Shown: positions 29,300 through 37,938, counted from the stretch's first letter. The stretch is 64,000 nucleotides of DNA from Gemmatimonadota bacterium (GCA_039588295.1 JBDHAB010000002.1:64001-128000), one strand, 5' to 3'. The notes: a model not told the origin generated them from the sequence alone. Numbers and translations: made by a program.

Positions 29300-31873
29300 T
29301 TAGAAAGCAAACCCTGCCGTCGCGTAGACACCAACGCGTTCCTCGCTCTGCGCAATGGCGAGACTGATGGTGTTGGCCGGCCCGAGGAACGCCAGCCACA
29401 CGCCGCCGCCAGCCGCCCAGTGCCACGTATCGGATGTCTCGCCCTCGAGGAACACACGACCCAGGTCACCGAGTCCAAAGAAACCCATCTCCCCCGGCAG
29501 TACCAGGAAGATCCGACTCAACCGGAAACGTAACTCCGCGTTCCCGAACACCGCCCCGTCACCGCCGAACCGGTTCTGGCGACCGAGGCGGACCGAACTG
29601 GCATCCCCGATATACGCCGCCTCTTGAAACGGAAAGCGGCCCCACACCTTCTTGCCGCCCACACGCAAGGCGAGCGTCGGCCGCAGGGGCGCCGCGGCGG
29701 CCGTGAGATAGGTGGAGAGTTCGGCATGGGCCTCACCAAACGTGTCCTCGACATCCCAGATGGAAGGATACACGCTCCCGAGCAGCTGAACATGCACACC
29801 ACGGGTCGCCGCGGCGCGAGTGTCGCGCGTGTCGAACTCGATCCCCCCGCGCCACCCAATCTGCCCGAACCCGCCCTCACCATACACCGTCAAATCCGCG
29901 AGAATCCGGCCATCCTGTTCCTTGGTGCTCGCGAACTTCAAGGATGGACCAAGCGTGAGTTCCCCGTGGGCGCCGAGCGGCAACACCACCGCGGGCTCGA
30001 ACCCGAACTGAGCCTGATTGACCCGGTAGTAGTCATCCTCCAGCGTGAGCTGCGTCTCGTTTCCGAGGCCGTGATATCGGAGAATATCGATCCCCGAAAC
30101 CCACAGGTCGAACACCCCACGAACCCGCGAATTCCGCCGGTACACCTCTGCGGACAGCTGCGCGCGGCCCGTGGTCGGCCCAGTGGCGAATCCTCCCCGG
30201 AATAAGATCCGCGAGGCGTACGGCAGCTTCCGAAACCCGTAATGCGTCACATACGCACCGGCGCCGAGAAAGACGCCAACGTCCGGCCCGCCACCCACCC
30301 ACATGAGCGACCACCACCGGTGGCCCCAGTCCCGCGGCGGGAGCTCGCTCGGGAACCGCTTCGGTGGAAGCACGAAGGGACGTCGATCGATGCCCACACG
30401 ACCGCTGGCGCGATCATTGCCGACCGTGTAGAGCGTCACTCCACCGGTTAGCGCCGAGTCCAGCACTTCGGCGCTCCCACCACCCACGATCCGCAGCGGA
30501 ATCCCTCCATGGCGGCCACGGACGACAAAGCGGTCATCTCCGCCATAGAGGAAGAACCGCAGCTCTTCCGTCTCAGTCCTGAGGAAACGGCGCCGCCAAT
30601 ATGGTCTCTCCGCAACGGAGGATCCCGTTCCCAGATAGATCCCGACCTCGGAACTACCATCCTCATGGCGTTCCACCACGACCGTCTCCGTCCGATCTGT
30701 CGCGTGCACATCTACTTCGCCGGCGAGCAGCCGGTAGTACCGCTGTGCTCCCTCGGAGAGGCGGTCACGCCGAAGCTTGAGCGTTCGCGCCATCCGCTCG
30801 CCGTCCACGGCAAAGTACGGGGCCGGCAGCGCGCGGGCGGCGGCGTCAATCACGGAGTCGGTCACTCGAGCCACGAACTCGGTTATGACCGAATCCCAGG
30901 TGGGCCACTCGAGCTCAACGAGGAGCTGGCGATCGACATCTCGACCATTCCATCCAAAACCCGTGATGTCGGGGAGCTTTTCACCGAAGTTGATGATCTG
31001 TGGAGCGTACTGCCGAGTGAGCGAGAGCAGCACACCGTCGTAGCGGCAGAACGCCTGGTCCCGATCCTCCGGGATCGGCACCCAATAAGTCACCGAATCC
31101 GACCCGAAGCGCGCCCAGGTCCATTGCCCCCGGTGCCGGTCCCAGTCACCCACGAGCAAGTCGAACAGCCGTGCACGGAGAAACGTGGTGAGGTTCACCC
31201 GGTCCTCGGGGCCTCGCCGCATGCGCTCGAACAGCTCAGAAGTCTCGATGATCTCGTCGGCGCCCGCAAACGGGTCGACGCCCCGCTCGATCGTCGCCCG
31301 CCGCTCGAAGAACCCGAGTATCCCGGCGAACTCCTCACGGAACTCGCCAAGAGCGGGGTCGTCGGGGAGCACCACCAGGCGTGGGTTCGTGTGGGGGATG
31401 CCCGCCGCATCCAGCAACCGGGCGATGACCGCTGGTGCGGCCGGATGCTGGGAGCTGGTCTGATCCTCAACGATGTCCTCGACGATCGTCTCCCTGAGCT
31501 CGTCCGGCAGGACGGCCGGCTTCTTGTCCACCGAGCGGAACCCGTACTCATACCCGTCCGCGCCACGGAACCGCAGCGACTTGGTCTGGAACCCGCCGCC
31601 TTTTGTCGTGGGCGTGAGACCGCCAGCTTCCGTCGCGAGATCCAGCACCGCCACCCGAAGCGGCAACGTCCACAGCTCGCGATAGTCACCGCCAAAGAAG
31701 AACCGGTGGAACCCACCCGCGCCATATTGTCGTCCCGCGACCACCTCGACGGAGTCTCCACCTACGAGCCGGCCGCTCACCTCCTGGGCGGGTACACGCG
31801 CTGCCAGGCCGAGGCCTACCGACGCAACGAACAGCAGCACGCAGCACACTCGGCGGATCACTAGGGCTTTCAT
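29300..31873 (-). CDS. Omp85/BamA-TamA-type outer-membrane protein with a large N-terminal putative atypical-kinase-fold domain
   Basis: Signal peptide (VPA-Q). The C-terminal beta-barrel has DTRD, P..E..YIG...VR...NRF.GD, NAELR, D.GRVF and terminal GFAF. The N-terminal part has GGGFQT, FRSVDK, FDLLVGDWDRH and IPEDRDQAF. ATGA overlap with the upstream gene. Confidence 0.85.
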   Translation of the reverse strand: MKALVIRRVCCVLLFVASVGLGLAARVPAQEVSGRLVGGDSVEVVAGRQYGAGGFHRFFFGGDYRELWTLPLRVAVLDLATEAGGLTPTTKGGGFQTKSLRFRGADGYEYGFRSVDKKPAVLPDELRETIVEDIVEDQTSSQHPAAPAVIARLLDAAGIPHTNPRLVVLPDDPALGEFREEFAGILGFFERRATIERGVDPFAGADEIIETSELFERMRRGPEDRVNLTTFLRARLFDLLVGDWDRHRGQWTWARFGSDSVTYWVPIPEDRDQAFCRYDGVLLSLTRQYAPQIINFGEKLPDITGFGWNGRDVDRQLLVELEWPTWDSVITEFVARVTDSVIDAAARALPAPYFAVDGERMARTLKLRRDRLSEGAQRYYRLLAGEVDVHATDRTETVVVERHEDGSSEVGIYLGTGSSVAERPYWRRRFLRTETEELRFFLYGGDDRFVVRGRHGGIPLRIVGGGSAEVLDSALTGGVTLYTVGNDRASGRVGIDRRPFVLPPKRFPSELPPRDWGHRWWSLMWVGGGPDVGVFLGAGAYVTHYGFRKLPYASRILFRGGFATGPTTGRAQLSAEVYRRNSRVRGVFDLWVSGIDILRYHGLGNETQLTLEDDYYRVNQAQFGFEPAVVLPLGAHGELTLGPSLKFASTKEQDGRILADLTVYGEGGFGQIGWRGGIEFDTRDTRAAATRGVHVQLLGSVYPSIWDVEDTFGEAHAELSTYLTAAAAPLRPTLALRVGGKKVWGRFPFQEAAYIGDASSVRLGRQNRFGGDGAVFGNAELRFRLSRIFLVLPGEMGFFGLGDLGRVFLEGETSDTWHWAAGGGVWLAFLGPANTISLAIAQSEERVGVYATAGFAF

Positions 31874-33099
31874 GGACGATTCTCCTCTTGGCCGTGCTCC
31901 GTCACAAGCCACATCGAGAAGTCCTCACGCACATCACCCTCCGGCCCCACCGCCATCACGCCGAGTCGCACCCGTCCGTCAGTCAGAACATCGACGCGCA
32001 TGAACCCGCTCTCCGCTTCCGCATATCGAGACTGTCGCAGGTAGACGACTCGCGTCGTATGTCCGTAGTACCCTCCCCCACTCACCAGAATGTGCCTCAC
32101 CCGACTGTCGTCGATCACCTGCAGGTTGTGCTCGTGGCCCGACGCGTAGAACAGCGGGACTCGCTCGGCAAACGCCGCGCTCAGGGAATCGAGCATCGCA
32201 ATGTACGCGTCGCCGGAGAGATCCTGTGCCGAAATACCGGAGGCGCGGGCCAATGGATACAGAGAACCCACGATCGGTAGCGGGACCCACAGCCATGACT
32301 TGAGAGCCCGCAGCGGAAACAGGTGGTCCAGGATGCCGAAATGCCCACCGTGGATTCCCCCGGAGGCCATGGGGTGGTGGGCGAGAATCCCGACGACCCT
32401 GTCTCCCGCTCGCCGGAGCAGCGTGCGCACCGAGTCTGTGACCTCACCCGGTGCGTCGGCCCGACAGTCCGACGTTGGGTCCGTGGGTTTCTCACCGGGG
32501 TGAAGCCACCACTGTGTGTCCAGCGCGATCAGCCGCAGCCATTCACCGACGTCGACCGCGACCGGCCCCGGACAGCCTCCGCTCGGCTGGAGGCTGATTC
32601 GTGCATTCCCCTGGGCGGCGAGGAACTCCTGCTGACGCCGGATGGTGTTCCACCCGTCGTCTCCTGATTCCGCCCAATCATGGTTGCCGGGAACGAAAAT
32701 GCCACGCGCTCCGTCCACGACCACGTCGACCTGCGCGGCAAGCCGTCGCTCTGCCAGCTTCCGGTTGGGAGAACCGGTCGGAGGAAGCCCCGCTGGATAC
32801 ACATTGTCGCCCAAGAACACGACGACGCTCCGGTCTGGCTGCTCACCGACGGCCGCCGCCGCCGCCAGCAGCACCAGATCGCCGCTCAAGTTCGGCTTCC
32901 CGGCGTCGCCCACCAGAAACACCGTCACGTCAATCGAGTCGGAAGCCGGTGCCGGCGCAGGCGGCGTGACAAGCCTGGGTTGCGACTGGCACGACGCAAC
33001 AACGAGAACACCGGTAGCGAGCGCTGCGATGCGTGCGATTGTCGCATGCGGCGCGTACCGGGTCACCGCAGATCCTCGTCGCAATCTCGTGTCAGTCAT
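31870..33099 (-). CDS. Calcineurin-like/purple-acid-phosphatase-like metallophosphoesterase, lipoprotein
   Basis: Lipobox VASC; GDAG, LGDNVY, PGNHDW, AHHP, SGHEH motifs; ATGA overlap with the mscS-like gene. Confidence 0.92.
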   Translation of the reverse strand: MTDTRLRRGSAVTRYAPHATIARIAALATGVLVVASCQSQPRLVTPPAPAPASDSIDVTVFLVGDAGKPNLSGDLVLLAAAAAVGEQPDRSVVVFLGDNVYPAGLPPTGSPNRKLAERRLAAQVDVVVDGARGIFVPGNHDWAESGDDGWNTIRRQQEFLAAQGNARISLQPSGGCPGPVAVDVGEWLRLIALDTQWWLHPGEKPTDPTSDCRADAPGEVTDSVRTLLRRAGDRVVGILAHHPMASGGIHGGHFGILDHLFPLRALKSWLWVPLPIVGSLYPLARASGISAQDLSGDAYIAMLDSLSAAFAERVPLFYASGHEHNLQVIDDSRVRHILVSGGGYYGHTTRVVYLRQSRYAEAESGFMRVDVLTDGRVRLGVMAVGPEGDVREDFSMWLVTEHGQEENRP

Positions 33100-34379
33100 G
33101 CGGTGGTTCCCGCCTCGTGCGCAGCCCGACCCCGGAACCCGGCCTCGAAGTCTCGGCCCGCGGGATGCTGGAATACGCGGAGACCGAATTCCGGGGCAAT
33201 GGCGAGAATGTGATCGAACACGTCTGACTGGATGCCCTCGTAATCCACCCACCCGATCACGTTGGAGAACGCGTAGACCTCGAGCGGCAGGCCGTCGGGT
33301 GTTGGATCGCGTTGACGTACCATGAGCGTCATGCCTTTGTGCGTCTCGGAACGTTGCCGCAGATAGTTCACGACATACGCCCGAAACGTCCCGATGTTCG
33401 TGAGACGGCGTGCATTGACGACCAACTCGGGTTCGGTCGGCTGCGGAGCCGCAGCCAACTCGGCTCTCTTGCCTCGGATGTACTCCCGAAGCAGTGCGAA
33501 GTTCTCGAACCGGTCGAGGTCGTCCGCACTCAGGAACCTGATGGTGTTCATGTCGATATGAATCGAGCGCTTGATCCTCCTCCCACCGGATTCCGACATG
33601 CCGCGCCAGTTCTTGAACGAACCTTCAATCAGCTTGTGCGTGGGAATCGTCGTGATCGTCTTGTCCCAGTTCTGCACCTTGATGGTGTGCAGAGCGATGT
33701 CGATCACATCGCCGTCGGCGCCGAACTCCGGAACCTCGATCCAATCGCCAACCCGCACCATGTTGTAGCTCGCCAACTGGAGACTGGCAACGAACGACAG
33801 GATCGTATCCCGGAAGATCAACAGAATCACGGCGGTCATCGCACCGACGCCACTCAGGAACAGCAGCGGTGACCGGTCGATGAGCGTCGAGATGATCACG
33901 ATCGCGCCGATGATATACATCACCAGCTTCGCGATCTGGACGTATCCCTTGATGGGGCGGTTTTCGAATCGGGGTGTTGCGGCGTAGAGCGCGTTGACGG
34001 CGGAGAGGAACGCTCCGACACTGCTCAGCAGCACGAGGACGATCGTGGCCGCCGCCACCCGTGTAATCACACTGCTCACCGAAGTCGGCAGGTTCGGAAG
34101 CAGTAGCACGCCGTAGTACACCGTGAGCGCCGGCGCCAGGTGGGCGAGGCGCGTGAACACACGGTGCTCGAGCAGCACGTCGTCCCAGCGGAACGCCGTA
34201 CCACGCACGAGGCGACTGATCACCGCGAGCAGCAGCTGCCTGGCGATCTTGTCAGCCAGATAAGCGGCGAGAGCGAGCAGGAGCAGACCCGCCACCTGCG
34301 CCGCCACCGTCGGCTCCCCGAGCCAGTCCAGCACTGAGGATCCCAAGGTTGTTTCGCTCTCCTGCAGAGCCGAGATCAT
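33096..34379 (-). CDS. Small-conductance mechanosensitive channel, YbdG/MscM-like
   Basis: PIKGYVQ, GAMTAV.LLIFRDTILS.VAS, GDWIEVP..GADGDV, VQNWDKTITTIPT, GGRRIKRS, TNIGTFRAY. Confidence 0.93.
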   Translation of the reverse strand: MISALQESETTLGSSVLDWLGEPTVAAQVAGLLLLALAAYLADKIARQLLLAVISRLVRGTAFRWDDVLLEHRVFTRLAHLAPALTVYYGVLLLPNLPTSVSSVITRVAAATIVLVLLSSVGAFLSAVNALYAATPRFENRPIKGYVQIAKLVMYIIGAIVIISTLIDRSPLLFLSGVGAMTAVILLIFRDTILSFVASLQLASYNMVRVGDWIEVPEFGADGDVIDIALHTIKVQNWDKTITTIPTHKLIEGSFKNWRGMSESGGRRIKRSIHIDMNTIRFLSADDLDRFENFALLREYIRGKRAELAAAPQPTEPELVVNARRLTNIGTFRAYVVNYLRQRSETHKGMTLMVRQRDPTPDGLPLEVYAFSNVIGWVDYEGIQSDVFDHILAIAPEFGLRVFQHPAGRDFEAGFRGRAAHEAGTTA

Positions 34380-35719
34380 CGTTTCCCTCCGTCACCGATG
34401 ACAGCCACCACGCGACGAGATCCCGCCAACCTCGGGTGGGAACCGCCCGCAAGCGCTACGCCGAAATGGACTCGGAAGAACACATCCAGCGCTGCGGCCA
34501 ACGCGTCTCCAAAGGCCTCATGACTACTCGCACTGTCGCGCACACCGTCGAAATTAGCCTCCAATTGCAGCGCGCTGACCGTTCCATCATCGCGAGAGCC
34601 GTGTCGTTTGGTGCTGTATCCCCCACTGTAGTATGGTGCTCCTCCCGGATGCCGGAACCGAGCACTCGGCACAGCCGGAAACCCACGGTCGGCCAAGAGG
34701 CTGCCGAGACTCGACGGCCCGCGAACGATCGCAGCCAGCCCGGAGTCGGAGTGCGCAACGAGCTCCCGCAGACTGCTCTTCTCCGCGAACGCCGAGAGAC
34801 TCAATTCCGAATCCGGAAGCTCGAGGTCCGTCGAACTCAGAAGATACCCCAGCTCGAGACGCTGCAACGCATGGCCGTGACCGTGCACGTCGATGTACAG
34901 GCCGCGTCCGTACTGCTCCGCAACCGAGGCCGTTGCCTTATCGACAAACCCATGGTACTCACTCCAGGCCCACTCGGCGAACGGATGTCCCTGCGCAGCC
35001 TCAACGACCTCTCGGTTGGGATCCAGCTTGCGACGATGCAGATGAGAGATGATCAGGTGGATTTGCCGTCCCGTACGTAGGCGCACTGCCTTCGCCACGG
35101 CACGAGCGAGTTCACGCGTATTGCGATCCCGCCCCGTCGTACCGTACGAACGGTCGGGCAGTTCCAGAGGTTCCAGCCCTCCTCCGTGCGGCGCCGAGAC
35201 CACGATGGGAACGTCACCCACAATGTACTCGATGTATCCGTGGCGACCGAGATAGCGCTCGCCAACCTCGAACTGATACCCGGGCGGGAGGTACACCTCG
35301 AGGCGTGCGGTATCCGACACGGGTCCGGCGCTGGCAATGATGTCGGTGACCCCCTGAGCCCGGGCAGTGGCGAGCCCGTGCGGATCGACGGAAGCGACCG
35401 TCGGGTCTCCGCTTTGCCAGCTGACGAATGCGCCGGGCAGCACGGCACCTGCGGCATCTTCGACTCGCGTTCGGAACCGTACCAGGGCACCGGCCTCAGT
35501 CGCGAGCACCAAGCCCGGTGTGATGACGACACGGGCGGGAACGGGCGGGGCCAACTCGCCACATGCGAGCAGGCCACCCTCGCCCAAGAGCACGGCGGCG
35601 ACACCCAGCCACCGTCGAAGAAGCGCGCCGCCAGAGTGATCAGGTCGGCGTGGATTCGAGCTGCCGAACCTGCCGCAGCGCACCGACGAACTGCTCCGTC
35701 GCCTTCTCGAGATATTCAT
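34376..35719 (-). CDS. Lipoprotein with Ig-like (Big_2-like) domain and N-formylglutamate amidohydrolase-like domain; start uncertain
   Basis: LLAC lipobox; VSWQSGDPTVASVDPHGLATA Ig-like motif; SAPHGG, RRKLDPNR, IDVHGHGH, LQLE. Confidence 0.75.
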   Translation of the reverse strand: MNISRRRRSSSSVRCGRFGSSNPRRPDHSGGALLRRWLGVAAVLLGEGGLLACGELAPPVPARVVITPGLVLATEAGALVRFRTRVEDAAGAVLPGAFVSWQSGDPTVASVDPHGLATARAQGVTDIIASAGPVSDTARLEVYLPPGYQFEVGERYLGRHGYIEYIVGDVPIVVSAPHGGGLEPLELPDRSYGTTGRDRNTRELARAVAKAVRLRTGRQIHLIISHLHRRKLDPNREVVEAAQGHPFAEWAWSEYHGFVDKATASVAEQYGRGLYIDVHGHGHALQRLELGYLLSSTDLELPDSELSLSAFAEKSSLRELVAHSDSGLAAIVRGPSSLGSLLADRGFPAVPSARFRHPGGAPYYSGGYSTKRHGSRDDGTVSALQLEANFDGVRDSASSHEAFGDALAAALDVFFRVHFGVALAGGSHPRLAGSRRVVAVIGDGGKR

Positions 35720-36179
35720 TGACCTCGTCGATGTAACCATCCGCCGAGGCGGACCACACGCGATTGAGATACCGCTCGCCCGTCGCGAAATAGTTCATCA
35801 CATCGGCATAGGCCTGCAGCCCATGCACGTGCGCGATACTCTCTCTCGCCTCGACGAACGTGTTGAGGTCGTCCGGGAACAACGCATCAATCCGCAGCCG
35901 CGCTTCGTACGGATCGAGCGAGTCCTTGGTCCTGTTCATGCGCTCGAGGTTTCCCACCACCCGCTCGAGGCTGTCTCCGATGGCCTGCATGTTGGAAGTG
36001 AGCTTCCCTTCCGCTCTCGCCTCGCGCCGCATGCTGATGCGAACAACGGCGATGCCAAGCACCCCGACCACGAGCGCGGCAGCGAAACTCCCCCAGCGCA
36101 CCAGCTCCTCATCCAACACGGTGGTCAGGGCACCTGCGAGGAATGCAAGCGAGATCAGCACATATCCGAGTCGTTTCAT
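35640..36179 (-). CDS. Hypothetical membrane protein (2 TM plus helical domain) downstream of the OPT transporter
   Basis: ATG 36179 with GGGGGA RBS; two hydrophobic helices; FATGERYLNRVWSASADGY. Confidence 0.8.
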   Translation of the reverse strand: MKRLGYVLISLAFLAGALTTVLDEELVRWGSFAAALVVGVLGIAVVRISMRREARAEGKLTSNMQAIGDSLERVVGNLERMNRTKDSLDPYEARLRIDALFPDDLNTFVEARESIAHVHGLQAYADVMNYFATGERYLNRVWSASADGYIDEVNEYLEKATEQFVGALRQVRQLESTPT

Positions 36180-36189
36180 CTCGTCCCCC

Positions 36190-37938
<1,749 letters not shown>

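What the first reader, a model, noticed from the sequence alone, without database searches (positions are those of the whole stretch)
29300..33099. Candidate envelope kinase/phosphatase system: kinase-fold passenger on its own Omp85 barrel, coupled to a lipoprotein phosphatase
Seen: two genes joined by an ATGA overlap. The first is a lipobox-bearing metallophosphoesterase with all five metal motifs. The second is a Sec-exported protein whose C-terminal half is an Omp85-type barrel ending in F. Its N-terminal ~350 aa carry, in kinase order, a Gly-rich loop (KGGGFQT, ~31583-31603), a basic beta-3 segment (FRSVDK), A..LL...G.P.T.P.L, a hinge-like GFFERR, a catalytic-like loop FDLLVGDWDRHxxQ (GDWDRH at 31133-31150), a metal-binding-like IPEDRDQAF and a terminal L..RR..L helix. 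Established: FD.L..N.DRH..N followed by an ID.G-type motif is the pattern of HipA-like, CotH, Fam20 and PI3/PI4-kinase-type atypical kinases. Omp85 proteins fused to a metallophosphoesterase are described in Bacteroidetes, and patatin-Omp85 (PlpD, type Vd) shows such barrels can carry enzyme passengers. Inference: this is a split version of that architecture in which the middle domain is a kinase. That would give a writer/eraser pair acting in the periplasm or at the cell surface on proteins, lipids or glycans. I am not aware of such a system having been characterised.
Basis: partly seen in the sequence, partly recalled or inferred. Interest (0 to 1): 0.8.

Follow-up and report, generated by a model that had tools for sequence, protein, structure and literature searches.

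The report
Outer-membrane barrel carrying a hidden kinase
This bacterium encodes an outer-membrane barrel protein whose front half is predicted to fold as an atypical kinase, directly behind a phosphatase lipoprotein gene, and because relatives sit beside ATP-transporter or polyphosphate genes these bacteria likely add and remove phosphate in the cell envelope, a compartment usually thought to lack ATP.

Summary
Confirmed. 31870-33099(-) encodes a lipoprotein metallophosphoesterase closest to purple acid phosphatases. 29300-31873(-) encodes a signal peptide, a kinase-fold domain, an all-beta linker (no POTRA) and a 16-strand Omp85 barrel. The domain model (pLDDT 96) matches CotH (Z 14.8), PI4KII-alpha (14.3), CtkA and HipA; catalytic D245 and metal-binding D270 are kept in 98-99% of 307 homologues. 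The phosphatase family occurs in 44 of 70 kinase-positive versus 1 of 131 kinase-negative genomes of the phylum, and is fused to the kinase-barrel in many Bacteroidota: this is the published Omp85 'Metallo' architecture with an unrecognised kinase inside. Within 10 kb of the gene lies an NTT ATP/ADP translocase (16 of 70 genomes) or DUF4956 (33), never both; these are two subfamilies, one split, not repeated co-evolution. This copy is NTT-type; its genome holds the NTT pair elsewhere. Best reading: a likely periplasm-facing kinase/phosphatase pair fed by exported ATP; activity, side, donor and substrate are untested, and 33 of 70 genomes show no NTT. Not found in 10 paper searches; the scan found this family before on other genomes.

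The parts
31870..33099 (-). Lipoprotein metallophosphoesterase gene (409 aa), purple-acid-phosphatase-like
   Evidence: PF00149 E 1.8e-5; metal ligands incl. Tyr invariant in 33 of 33; profile hits purple acid phosphatase/TRAP E 3e-11
32989..33000 (-). Lipobox VAS-C (Cys37)
   Evidence: strict lipobox pattern in 26 of 35 homologues, a Cys after a hydrophobic stretch in 34 of 35 by eye
31870..31873 (-). ATGA stop/start overlap between phosphatase and kinase-barrel genes
   Evidence: spanned without difference by a contig of run X2
29300..31873 (-). Kinase-Omp85 gene (857 aa)
31787..31873 (-). Predicted Sec signal peptide (about residues 1-29; cleavage site inferred)
   Evidence: hydrophobic stretch in the first 50 aa of 182 of 205 full-length homologues, against 0 of 221 for residues 60-110
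30719..31762 (-). Atypical kinase-fold domain (residues 38-385), CotH/PI4KII/CtkA/HipA clan
31583..31603 (-). Gly-rich loop KGGGFQT
   Evidence: between strands 1 and 2; G93 96.7%, Q96 95.4% of 307
31523..31540 (-). Beta-3 segment FRSVDK; R113 and K117 near-invariant (Arg where kin have Lys, inferred from the motif)
   Evidence: 99.3% each
31133..31150 (-). Catalytic loop GDWDRH (D245 aligns with the DRH of CtkA)
31049..31075 (-). Metal-binding segment IPEDRDQAF (D270, D272); E269 marks the NTT-linked subfamily
30323..30718 (-). All-beta linker of short strands (residues 386-517), no helices, so not POTRA; fold not identified
   Evidence: DSSP; barely tested
29303..30322 (-). 16-strand Omp85 barrel ending in Phe
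   Evidence: BamA E 1e-11; Sam50, TamA, BamA Z 24-25
33096..34379 (-). Upstream mscS-type gene, coupled by a second ATGA overlap; probably local synteny, not part of the module
   Evidence: near the kinase gene in 13 of 80 loci, all Gemmatimonadota close to this one

Best explanation
The 857-aa protein has an Omp85 outer-membrane barrel and a front domain predicted to fold as a CotH/PI4KII-clan kinase that likely stays in the periplasm and likely transfers phosphate from ATP, probably exported by an NTT-type ATP/ADP exchanger encoded elsewhere in this genome, to an unidentified envelope acceptor, while the co-encoded purple-acid-phosphatase-like lipoprotein would remove it. Shown by calls: gene anatomy, predicted folds, conservation, co-occurrence, fusion and neighbourhoods. 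Inferred, with my odds: catalytically active phosphotransferase 0.85; periplasm-facing 0.7; ATP supplied by the NTT pair in this lineage 0.5; kinase and phosphatase acting on the same phosphate 0.5. The barrel most likely serves as the anchor that holds the enzyme against the inner face of the outer membrane, so the acceptor is probably membrane-bound (protein, lipid or glycan). A sister subfamily (Arg at position 269) sits beside DUF4956, PPK1 and PycTM genes and may be fed from polyphosphate instead.
For: Fold: model pLDDT 95.8, pTM 0.94; VIA-align CotH 5jda Z 14.8 (rmsd 4.1, 254 aligned), PI4KII-alpha Z 14.3, CtkA 13.4, HipA 11.9, Fam20 10.9, and the 50 rows listed are kinase-fold proteins or complexes that contain them; Foldseek CtkA E 1.9e-5, CotH 9e-5; sequence profile alone reaches CtkA at E 0.0054 and aligns DWDRH and the following Asp. 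Selection on the active site: R113, K117, D137, D270, D272 in 99.3%, D243, D245 98.4%, R246 99.0%, H247 95.1% of 307 domains; the ten-residue set is intact in 112 of 121 genomic copies. Coupling to the phosphatase: 44 of 70 kinase-positive against 1 of 131 kinase-negative genomes, within 4 kb in 31; fused in Bacteroidota (30 of 66 matches lie in open frames of 1200-1400 codons; Metallophos plus Omp85 confirmed for L110 and P0183); two unrelated phosphoesterase types fill the slot. Donor supply: NTT/TLC genes in 18 of 80 loci from several phyla, within 10 kb in 16 of 70 genomes (15 by the strict orthologue cut-off), with translocase, phosphatase and kinase together in 7; the only PDB sequence matches of that transporter are NTT1 ADP/ATP carriers (E 3e-12). 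This protein falls in a starred 29-row clade with 9 NTT-linked and no polyphosphate-linked rows and has the NTT-type E269 (17 of 18). Its genome and 5 of 5 close relatives hold both NTT genes, in this genome and 4 of those 5 beside a second exported kinase-like family; 18 of 19 genomes with that second family hold an NTT hit against 95 of 201 overall, and all 26 genomes with the NTT orthologue hold one of the two kinase families. Side: no POTRA; PlpD's enzyme domain is periplasmic (PMC11116518 abstract).
Against: No biochemical data. 33 of 70 kinase-positive genomes, several nearly closed, show no NTT by two searches, and NTT hits of any kind are not enriched (35 of 70 against 60 of 131). The orthologue enrichment (23 of 70 against 3 of 131) is partly circular because the profile was built from kinase neighbours. 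In this genome the NTT pair is on another contig, and in G073, G012, G133, G047 and G023 no exported kinase gene was seen beside it (first 90 residues of each ORF read by eye). Characterised NTTs take ATP up (PMC5381601 section 4); export is my inference. 26 of 70 genomes lack this phosphatase family. The NTT/polyphosphate exclusion needs only 2 changes on the tree and gives 1 to 2 independent pairs. The active site is non-canonical (Arg at the beta-3 position, Gln for the catalytic-loop Asn, no Glu at the HipA alpha-C position; equivalences inferred from motifs). Most neighbours (phosphatases, phytase-like propeller, PPK1, nucleotide transporter) fit phosphate scavenging equally well.
Confidence: 0.45

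Rival explanations
1. The module is a phosphate- and nucleotide-scavenging unit: the barrel admits or tethers outside nucleotides or phosphate esters, the kinase fold traps or shuffles their phosphate, the phosphatase frees inorganic phosphate, the NTT imports nucleotide and PPK1 stores the gain.
For: Recurrent neighbours are phosphatases, SdiA-regulated/phytase-like propellers (11 of 20 and 13 of 20 loci), PPK1, HD-PycTM and NTT; characterised NTTs take ATP up; the phosphatase is purple-acid-phosphatase-like.
Against: No phosphate-uptake transporter was among the neighbour clusters that I annotated; NTT loci carry a membrane Ser/Thr kinase and further exported kinase-like genes, which looks regulatory or modifying; 18 of 19 genomes with the second exported kinase family hold an NTT.
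Confidence: 0.22
2. The donor is polyphosphate made by PPK1 and passed across the inner membrane by DUF4956, also for this copy.
For: DUF4956 within 10 kb in 33 of 70 genomes and present in 50 of 70 against 37 of 131; this genome has a DUF4956::PPK1 fusion; secreted CotH, polyphosphate polymerase and DUF4956 travel together in Gram-positive pel loci (10.1101/768473 and PMC12345266, passages); many invariant Arg residues.
Against: This copy has E269 and lies in the clade without polyphosphate-linked rows; DUF4956 has no shown transport role; its DUF4956 gene is on another contig.
Confidence: 0.13
3. The domain is a surface-displayed passenger (type Vd-like) that uses extracellular ATP on outside targets.
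For: Omp85 barrels of the TpsB type translocate proteins (recalled); the linker has Gly-Gly-x-Gly-x-Asp repeats in 90 of 221 homologues, reminiscent of calcium-binding beta-rolls of secreted enzymes (resemblance recalled).
Against: No POTRA; the one tested enzyme-Omp85 keeps its enzyme in the periplasm; inner-membrane transporter genes are the main neighbours.
Confidence: 0.1
4. The domain is a pseudokinase or uses the kinase fold for other chemistry (nucleotide sensing, ATP hydrolysis, nucleotidyl transfer).
For: Non-canonical residues at the beta-3, alpha-C and catalytic-loop Asn positions; two degenerate copies exist (L103, L104).
Against: Both the catalytic and the metal-binding Asp are kept in over 98% of 307 domains, in kinase order; a phosphatase is tightly coupled.
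Confidence: 0.1

Closest known systems
Omp85 'Metallo' subfamily (Heinz and Lithgow 2014, PMC4104836)
   Same: PF00149 domain plus Omp85 barrel without POTRA; fused homologues carry this same middle domain.
   Different: Here split into a lipoprotein and a barrel gene. The paper calls PF00149 a metalloprotease and its main text holds neither 'kinase' nor 'phosph'; its supplements were not read.
CotH kinases (PF08757; B. cereus 5jda)
   Same: Best structural match, Z 14.8 over 254 residues; exported atypical kinase; CotH genes also travel with DUF4956 and a polyphosphate polymerase.
   Different: 13% identity, no PF08757 hit; fused to an outer-membrane barrel; different motif wording (DWDRH..Q, D.D).
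PI4KII-alpha, CtkA, HipA/HipT, Fam20
   Same: Same kinase clan (Z 10-14.3), DRH catalytic loop aligned with CtkA.
   Different: Those act in the cytoplasm, in host cells or in the Golgi lumen; no Pfam hit; no antitoxin neighbour and no PADLOC hit.
PlpD (patatin-Omp85)
   Same: Enzyme domain on its own Omp85 barrel; periplasmic in PlpD (PMC11116518 abstract).
   Different: PlpD has a POTRA and a lipase; here a kinase fold, an all-beta linker and a partner phosphatase.
Secretory-pathway kinases fed by a lumenal ATP/ADP exchanger (Fam20C; analogy taken from scan note e1-2417549, details recalled)
   Same: Kinase outside the cytosol plus a nucleotide exchanger as the likely ATP source.
   Different: Bacterial envelope; NTT-family transporter; direction of transport untested.
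NTT and NTT-HEAT proteins of free-living bacteria (Major et al. 2017, PMC5381601)
   Same: The neighbours are a single-domain NTT and an NTT-HEAT.
   Different: The paper gives their function as unknown and its main text holds no 'kinase', 'export' or 'periplasm'.

Membership tests
Omp85 superfamily | C-terminal 16-stranded beta-barrel homologous to BamA/TamA/Sam50 | tested here: met
   16 strands in the model; Z 24-25 to Sam50, TamA, BamA; profile E 6e-10 to a BamA
Omp85 superfamily (BamA/TamA/PlpD types) | At least one POTRA domain | tested here: not met
   No helix between kinase domain and barrel; no POTRA Pfam hit
Omp85 'Metallo' subfamily | PF00149 domain N-terminal to the barrel in one chain | tested here: not met
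   Split into two ORFs; met by homologues L110 and P0183
Omp85 'Metallo' subfamily | Homology of the non-phosphatase part to the fused proteins | tested here: met
   Kinase profile hits fused ORFs at E 1e-83 to 1e-129; P0183 47% identical
Atypical protein-kinase-like clan (CotH, PI3/4K, HipA, Fam20) | Two-lobed kinase fold | tested here: met
Atypical protein-kinase-like clan | Catalytic-loop Asp and downstream metal-binding Asp | tested here: met
   D245 and D270 aligned to CtkA, 98.4% and 99.3% of 307
Atypical protein-kinase-like clan | Beta-3 Lys paired with an alpha-C Glu | tested here: inconclusive
   R113 at the motif position, K117 four residues on, D137 invariant, no conserved Glu at the HipA position; no residue-level structural alignment was available
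Atypical protein-kinase-like clan | ATP-dependent phosphotransfer | not testable with these tools
   needs an assay
CotH family (PF08757) | Pfam CotH match | tested here: not met
   no hit at E<=1; Atlas nearest named cluster CotH 30% at 0.78 is a lead only
HipA toxin-antitoxin kinases | HipA Pfam match, cytoplasmic, antitoxin neighbour | tested here: not met
   no hit; signal peptide and barrel present
Purple acid phosphatase-like metallophosphoesterases (partner gene) | Five motifs DxG, GDxxY, GNH(D/E), xxH, GHxH (pattern recalled) | tested here: met
Type Vd autotransporter | Passenger translocated to the surface; one POTRA | tested here: inconclusive
   POTRA absent; topology not testable here

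The most novel reading that the evidence does not exclude
Many free-living Gram-negative bacteria deliberately export a high-energy phosphate donor into the periplasm, ATP through NTT/NTT-HEAT exchangers in one branch and polyphosphate through DUF4956-linked PPK1 in the other, to drive an outer-membrane-anchored kinase and its eraser phosphatase: a general envelope phosphorylation system that also explains the orphan NTTs and the Omp85 'Metallo' subfamily.
Probability: 0.3. Interest if true: 0.92.

Novelty: new variant of a known kind. Interest (0 to 1): 0.76.

Why it matters
The periplasm is taught as an ATP-free compartment (recalled textbook view), yet this widespread family (70 of 201 sampled Gemmatimonadota-level genomes, 53 of 121 sampled Bacteroidota-level genomes) keeps an intact atypical-kinase active site on an outer-membrane barrel. 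It reinterprets a published but uncharacterised Omp85 subfamily, offers a testable job for NTT transporters of free-living bacteria whose function is stated to be unknown, and makes the open question of where exported CotH-clan kinases get their phosphate directly testable with one soluble domain, two donors and two point mutants.

Tried and rejected
Single-sequence PDB search of the domain found nothing; Pfam, NCBIfam and PADLOC name nothing in residues 38-390. Longer fused forms over 1500 aa: none among 7998 candidates, weak evidence; shorter forms were not searched. Genome-level enrichment of any NTT: not seen (35 of 70 against 60 of 131). Co-evolution of residue 269 with donor-gene type: perfect match in 38 rows but only 1 to 2 independent pairs, so rejected as proof; the Fisher p-values ignore kinship and are not used. 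Sequence homology between this kinase and the two other exported kinase-like proteins of the genome: none. mscS, UPF0182, OPT and fabH as parts of the module: rejected, only in close relatives. Anti-phage reading (PycTM neighbours in 17 of 20 Bacteroidota loci): no PADLOC hit for the kinase, the phosphatase or a fused protein; not pursued. Complex prediction of kinase with phosphatase was not available, so binding is untested. No RNA holder listed. A 74-genome sample from the phylum of G201 gave 13 hits but its identity is unclear. Riemerella papers (PMC13595192, PMC10281475; passages) are unrelated. The word search of earlier findings gave nothing; two notes on this genome were unrelated.
Full report
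OBSERVATION. The two ORFs and all quoted motifs are present at the stated places. Gene 1 (31870-33099, minus, 409 aa) has a lipobox and the five metal motifs. Gene 2 (29300-31873, minus, 857 aa) has a signal-like N-terminus and ends in GFAF. Pfam and NCBIfam recognise only the phosphoesterase and the barrel. The named homologues closest in sequence are Gemmatimonadota. A contig from another run of one study spans the stop/start junction unchanged.

FOLD. Residues 38-392, folded with 146 sequences, gave pLDDT 95.8 and pTM 0.94. Foldseek's best hits are CtkA (E 1.9e-5), CotH (9e-5), PI4KII-alpha, HipA/HipT and Fam20. VIA-align against 48,161 chains ranks CotH Z 14.8 (rmsd 4.1, 254 aligned), PI4KII-alpha 14.3, CtkA 13.4, HipA 11.9; the first rows are tied, so no single family is 'the' relative. 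A 57-row profile reaches CtkA by sequence alone (E 0.0054) and aligns DWDRH with its DRH loop and D270 with the next Asp. The full-length model (pLDDT 95.5) shows the kinase domain, an all-beta linker without helices, and 16 barrel strands matching Sam50, TamA and BamA at Z 24-25. So: kinase fold, no POTRA, true Omp85 barrel.

CONSERVATION. In 307 domains (264 top-scoring database hits, so biased to close relatives, plus 22 Bacteroidota-level and 21 Gemmatimonadota loci; 2 of 310 hits dropped as short, the query set aside) 33 of 355 columns are at least 95% identical, among them R113, K117, D137, D243, D245, R246, H247, D270, R271, D272. The ten-residue set is whole in 112 of 121 genomic copies. 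Against HipA/CtkA motifs (recalled) the site is odd: Arg at the beta-3 position, Gln for Asn, no conserved Glu at the usual helix position.

PARTNER PHOSPHATASE. Its profile's best PDB matches are purple acid phosphatases (E 3e-11). It lies beside the kinase gene in 35 of 80 loci, upstream or downstream, never fused in that set. In 201 genomes sampled from the phylum, 70 hold the kinase and 45 the phosphatase, 44 of them among the 70; 31 within 4 kb. 26 of 70 lack it, though a second phosphoesterase type sits there in 5 of 20 loci examined. In 121 genomes from the phylum of G202 (record title 'Bacteroidota bacterium'), 53 have the kinase and 30 of 66 matches lie in frames of 1200-1400 codons; I fetched 20 loci from these 53 genomes, favouring long frames, and 16 hold the long form, with Metallophos plus Omp85 confirmed for L110. 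This is the Omp85 'Metallo' subfamily of PMC4104836 (passages and section 10 read; supplements not read), where PF00149 is called a metalloprotease and no kinase is mentioned.

WHERE WOULD THE PHOSPHATE COME FROM? Clustering the neighbours of 80 loci showed a single-domain NTT/TLC translocase and an NTT-HEAT protein (18 of 80 loci, Gemmatimonadota, Latescibacterota, Krumholzibacteriota), usually with a membrane Ser/Thr kinase. The single-domain NTT matches only NTT1 ADP/ATP carriers in the PDB. In the 70 genomes it lies within 10 kb in 16 (15 strict), DUF4956 in 33, both in none, neither in 21, this genome among them. In 20 loci picked from NTT-less genomes the neighbours were DUF4956 (14), SdiA-regulated propeller (11) and PPK1 (4); in the 20 Bacteroidota-level loci PycTM (17), SdiA-regulated (13), adenylate-cyclase-like (9), PPK1 (2). 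A tree of 121 domains (quick IQ-TREE, all rows kept; 5 more loci had no full domain) puts this protein in a starred clade of 29 rows with 9 NTT-linked and no polyphosphate-linked rows. Residue 269, just before the metal-binding Asp, is Glu in 17 of 18 NTT-linked rows and here, Arg in 21 of 26 polyphosphate-linked and Arg/Lys in 16 of 16 PycTM-linked rows; but two changes explain the labels and only 1 to 2 independent pairs exist, so this is two subfamilies, not shown co-evolution. This genome keeps its NTT pair on contig C10, beside a bare Omp85 barrel, a second exported kinase-like protein (no Pfam hit; Atlas leads Fam20C, HipA_2, CotH at 0.81-0.84, under the reliable range), a Ser/Thr kinase and a further secreted protein that looks CotH-like by motif only; 5 of 5 close relatives keep both NTT genes and both kinase families. 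The second family occurs in 19 of 201 genomes, 18 of which have an NTT hit (background 95 of 201), and all 26 genomes with the NTT orthologue have one of the two families (background 79 of 201). Against: 33 of 70 genomes show no NTT, NTTs in general are not enriched (35 of 70 against 60 of 131), the orthologue profile was built from kinase neighbours, and five fetched NTT loci showed no exported kinase beside the transporter. The genome also has a DUF4956::PPK1 fusion. Secreted CotH, polyphosphate polymerase and DUF4956 are reported together in Gram-positive pel loci, where deleting the CotH or DUF4956 gene lowers aggregation (10.1101/768473 and PMC12345266, passages only; preprint supplements are closed).

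MECHANISM. Shown: anatomy, predicted folds, conservation, co-occurrence, neighbourhoods. Inferred: Sec export and barrel insertion; the kinase staying periplasmic (no POTRA; PlpD's enzyme domain is periplasmic, PMC11116518 abstract); phosphotransfer at D245/D270; ATP delivered by the NTT pair working outward in exchange for ADP (known NTTs take ATP up and the role of these forms is given as unknown, PMC5381601 passages and section 4); removal by the lipoprotein phosphatase. The acceptor is unknown. I put this chain at 0.45; rivals are phosphate scavenging (0.22), polyphosphate as donor for this copy too (0.13), surface display (0.10) and pseudokinase or other chemistry (0.10).

NOVELTY. Ten searches of the held library (listings and abstract starts seen) returned no paper describing a kinase domain in an Omp85 protein or an NTT feeding an exported kinase; most subscription journals are not covered. 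The parts are known kinds; the combination, the kinase family and the donor link are not described in what I could search, hence 'new variant of a known kind'. The scan noted this family earlier on other genomes (e1-5218537, e1-2417549, e1-4784707). I had the fold and the NTT link before that look-up; the notes pushed me to test the polyphosphate link and supplied the Fam20C analogy. They are not counted as support. New here: the one-way dependence of the phosphatase on the kinase (44 of 45), the two subfamilies with exclusive neighbourhoods and residue 269, and the negative controls on the NTT claim.

VERDICT. Real, widespread, strongly conserved, uncharacterised; fold secure, chemistry and direction untested. 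Interest 0.76.

Noticed in passing
L082:2465-18392 (G000:C10): Second cluster in the same genome: DegP, bare Omp85 barrel, an exported 602-aa kinase-like protein of another family, membrane Ser/Thr kinase, NhaA-like gene, NTT, NTT-HEAT and a secreted CotH-like protein.
   Followed up: partly
L083:6846-13852 (G000:C25): DUF4956::PPK1 fusion (933 aa) facing a CHAD protein with a CYTH-like tail and a second ppk1: a membrane-linked polyphosphate kinase.
   Followed up: partly
L084:5402-6562, L085:5241-6323: Two more paralogues of the secreted CotH-like protein (no Pfam hit for the C10 copy); a fourth partial hit on C138.
   Followed up: no
L106-L125: Bacteroidota fused genes sit beside HD-PycTM or lone PycTM genes (17 of 20) and adenylate-cyclase-like genes (9 of 20), hinting at a cyclic-nucleotide link outside any Pycsar operon.
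   Followed up: partly
L053:5860-10155: The kinase-barrel frame runs on into a Hanks-type kinase (1431 aa); topologically unlikely, probably an assembly frameshift.
   Followed up: no
L103 and L104 (G136, G148): Long-branch copies that have lost the whole catalytic set: true pseudokinase versions, useful as natural controls.
   Followed up: no
window 33096-37938 (-): Run of OPT transporter, small membrane protein, Ig-like/FGase-like protein and mscS, the last two and the phosphatase chained by ATGA overlaps; UPF0182 follows the barrel gene after 56 bases.
   Followed up: partly
window 30323-30718 (-): Linker of short beta strands with Gly-Gly-x-Gly-x-Asp in 90 of 221 homologues, like a calcium-binding beta-roll (resemblance recalled).
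   Followed up: partly
L086, L089, L102: PPK1 fused behind a CYTH-like domain (about 1100 aa) next to the kinase-barrel gene.
   Followed up: no
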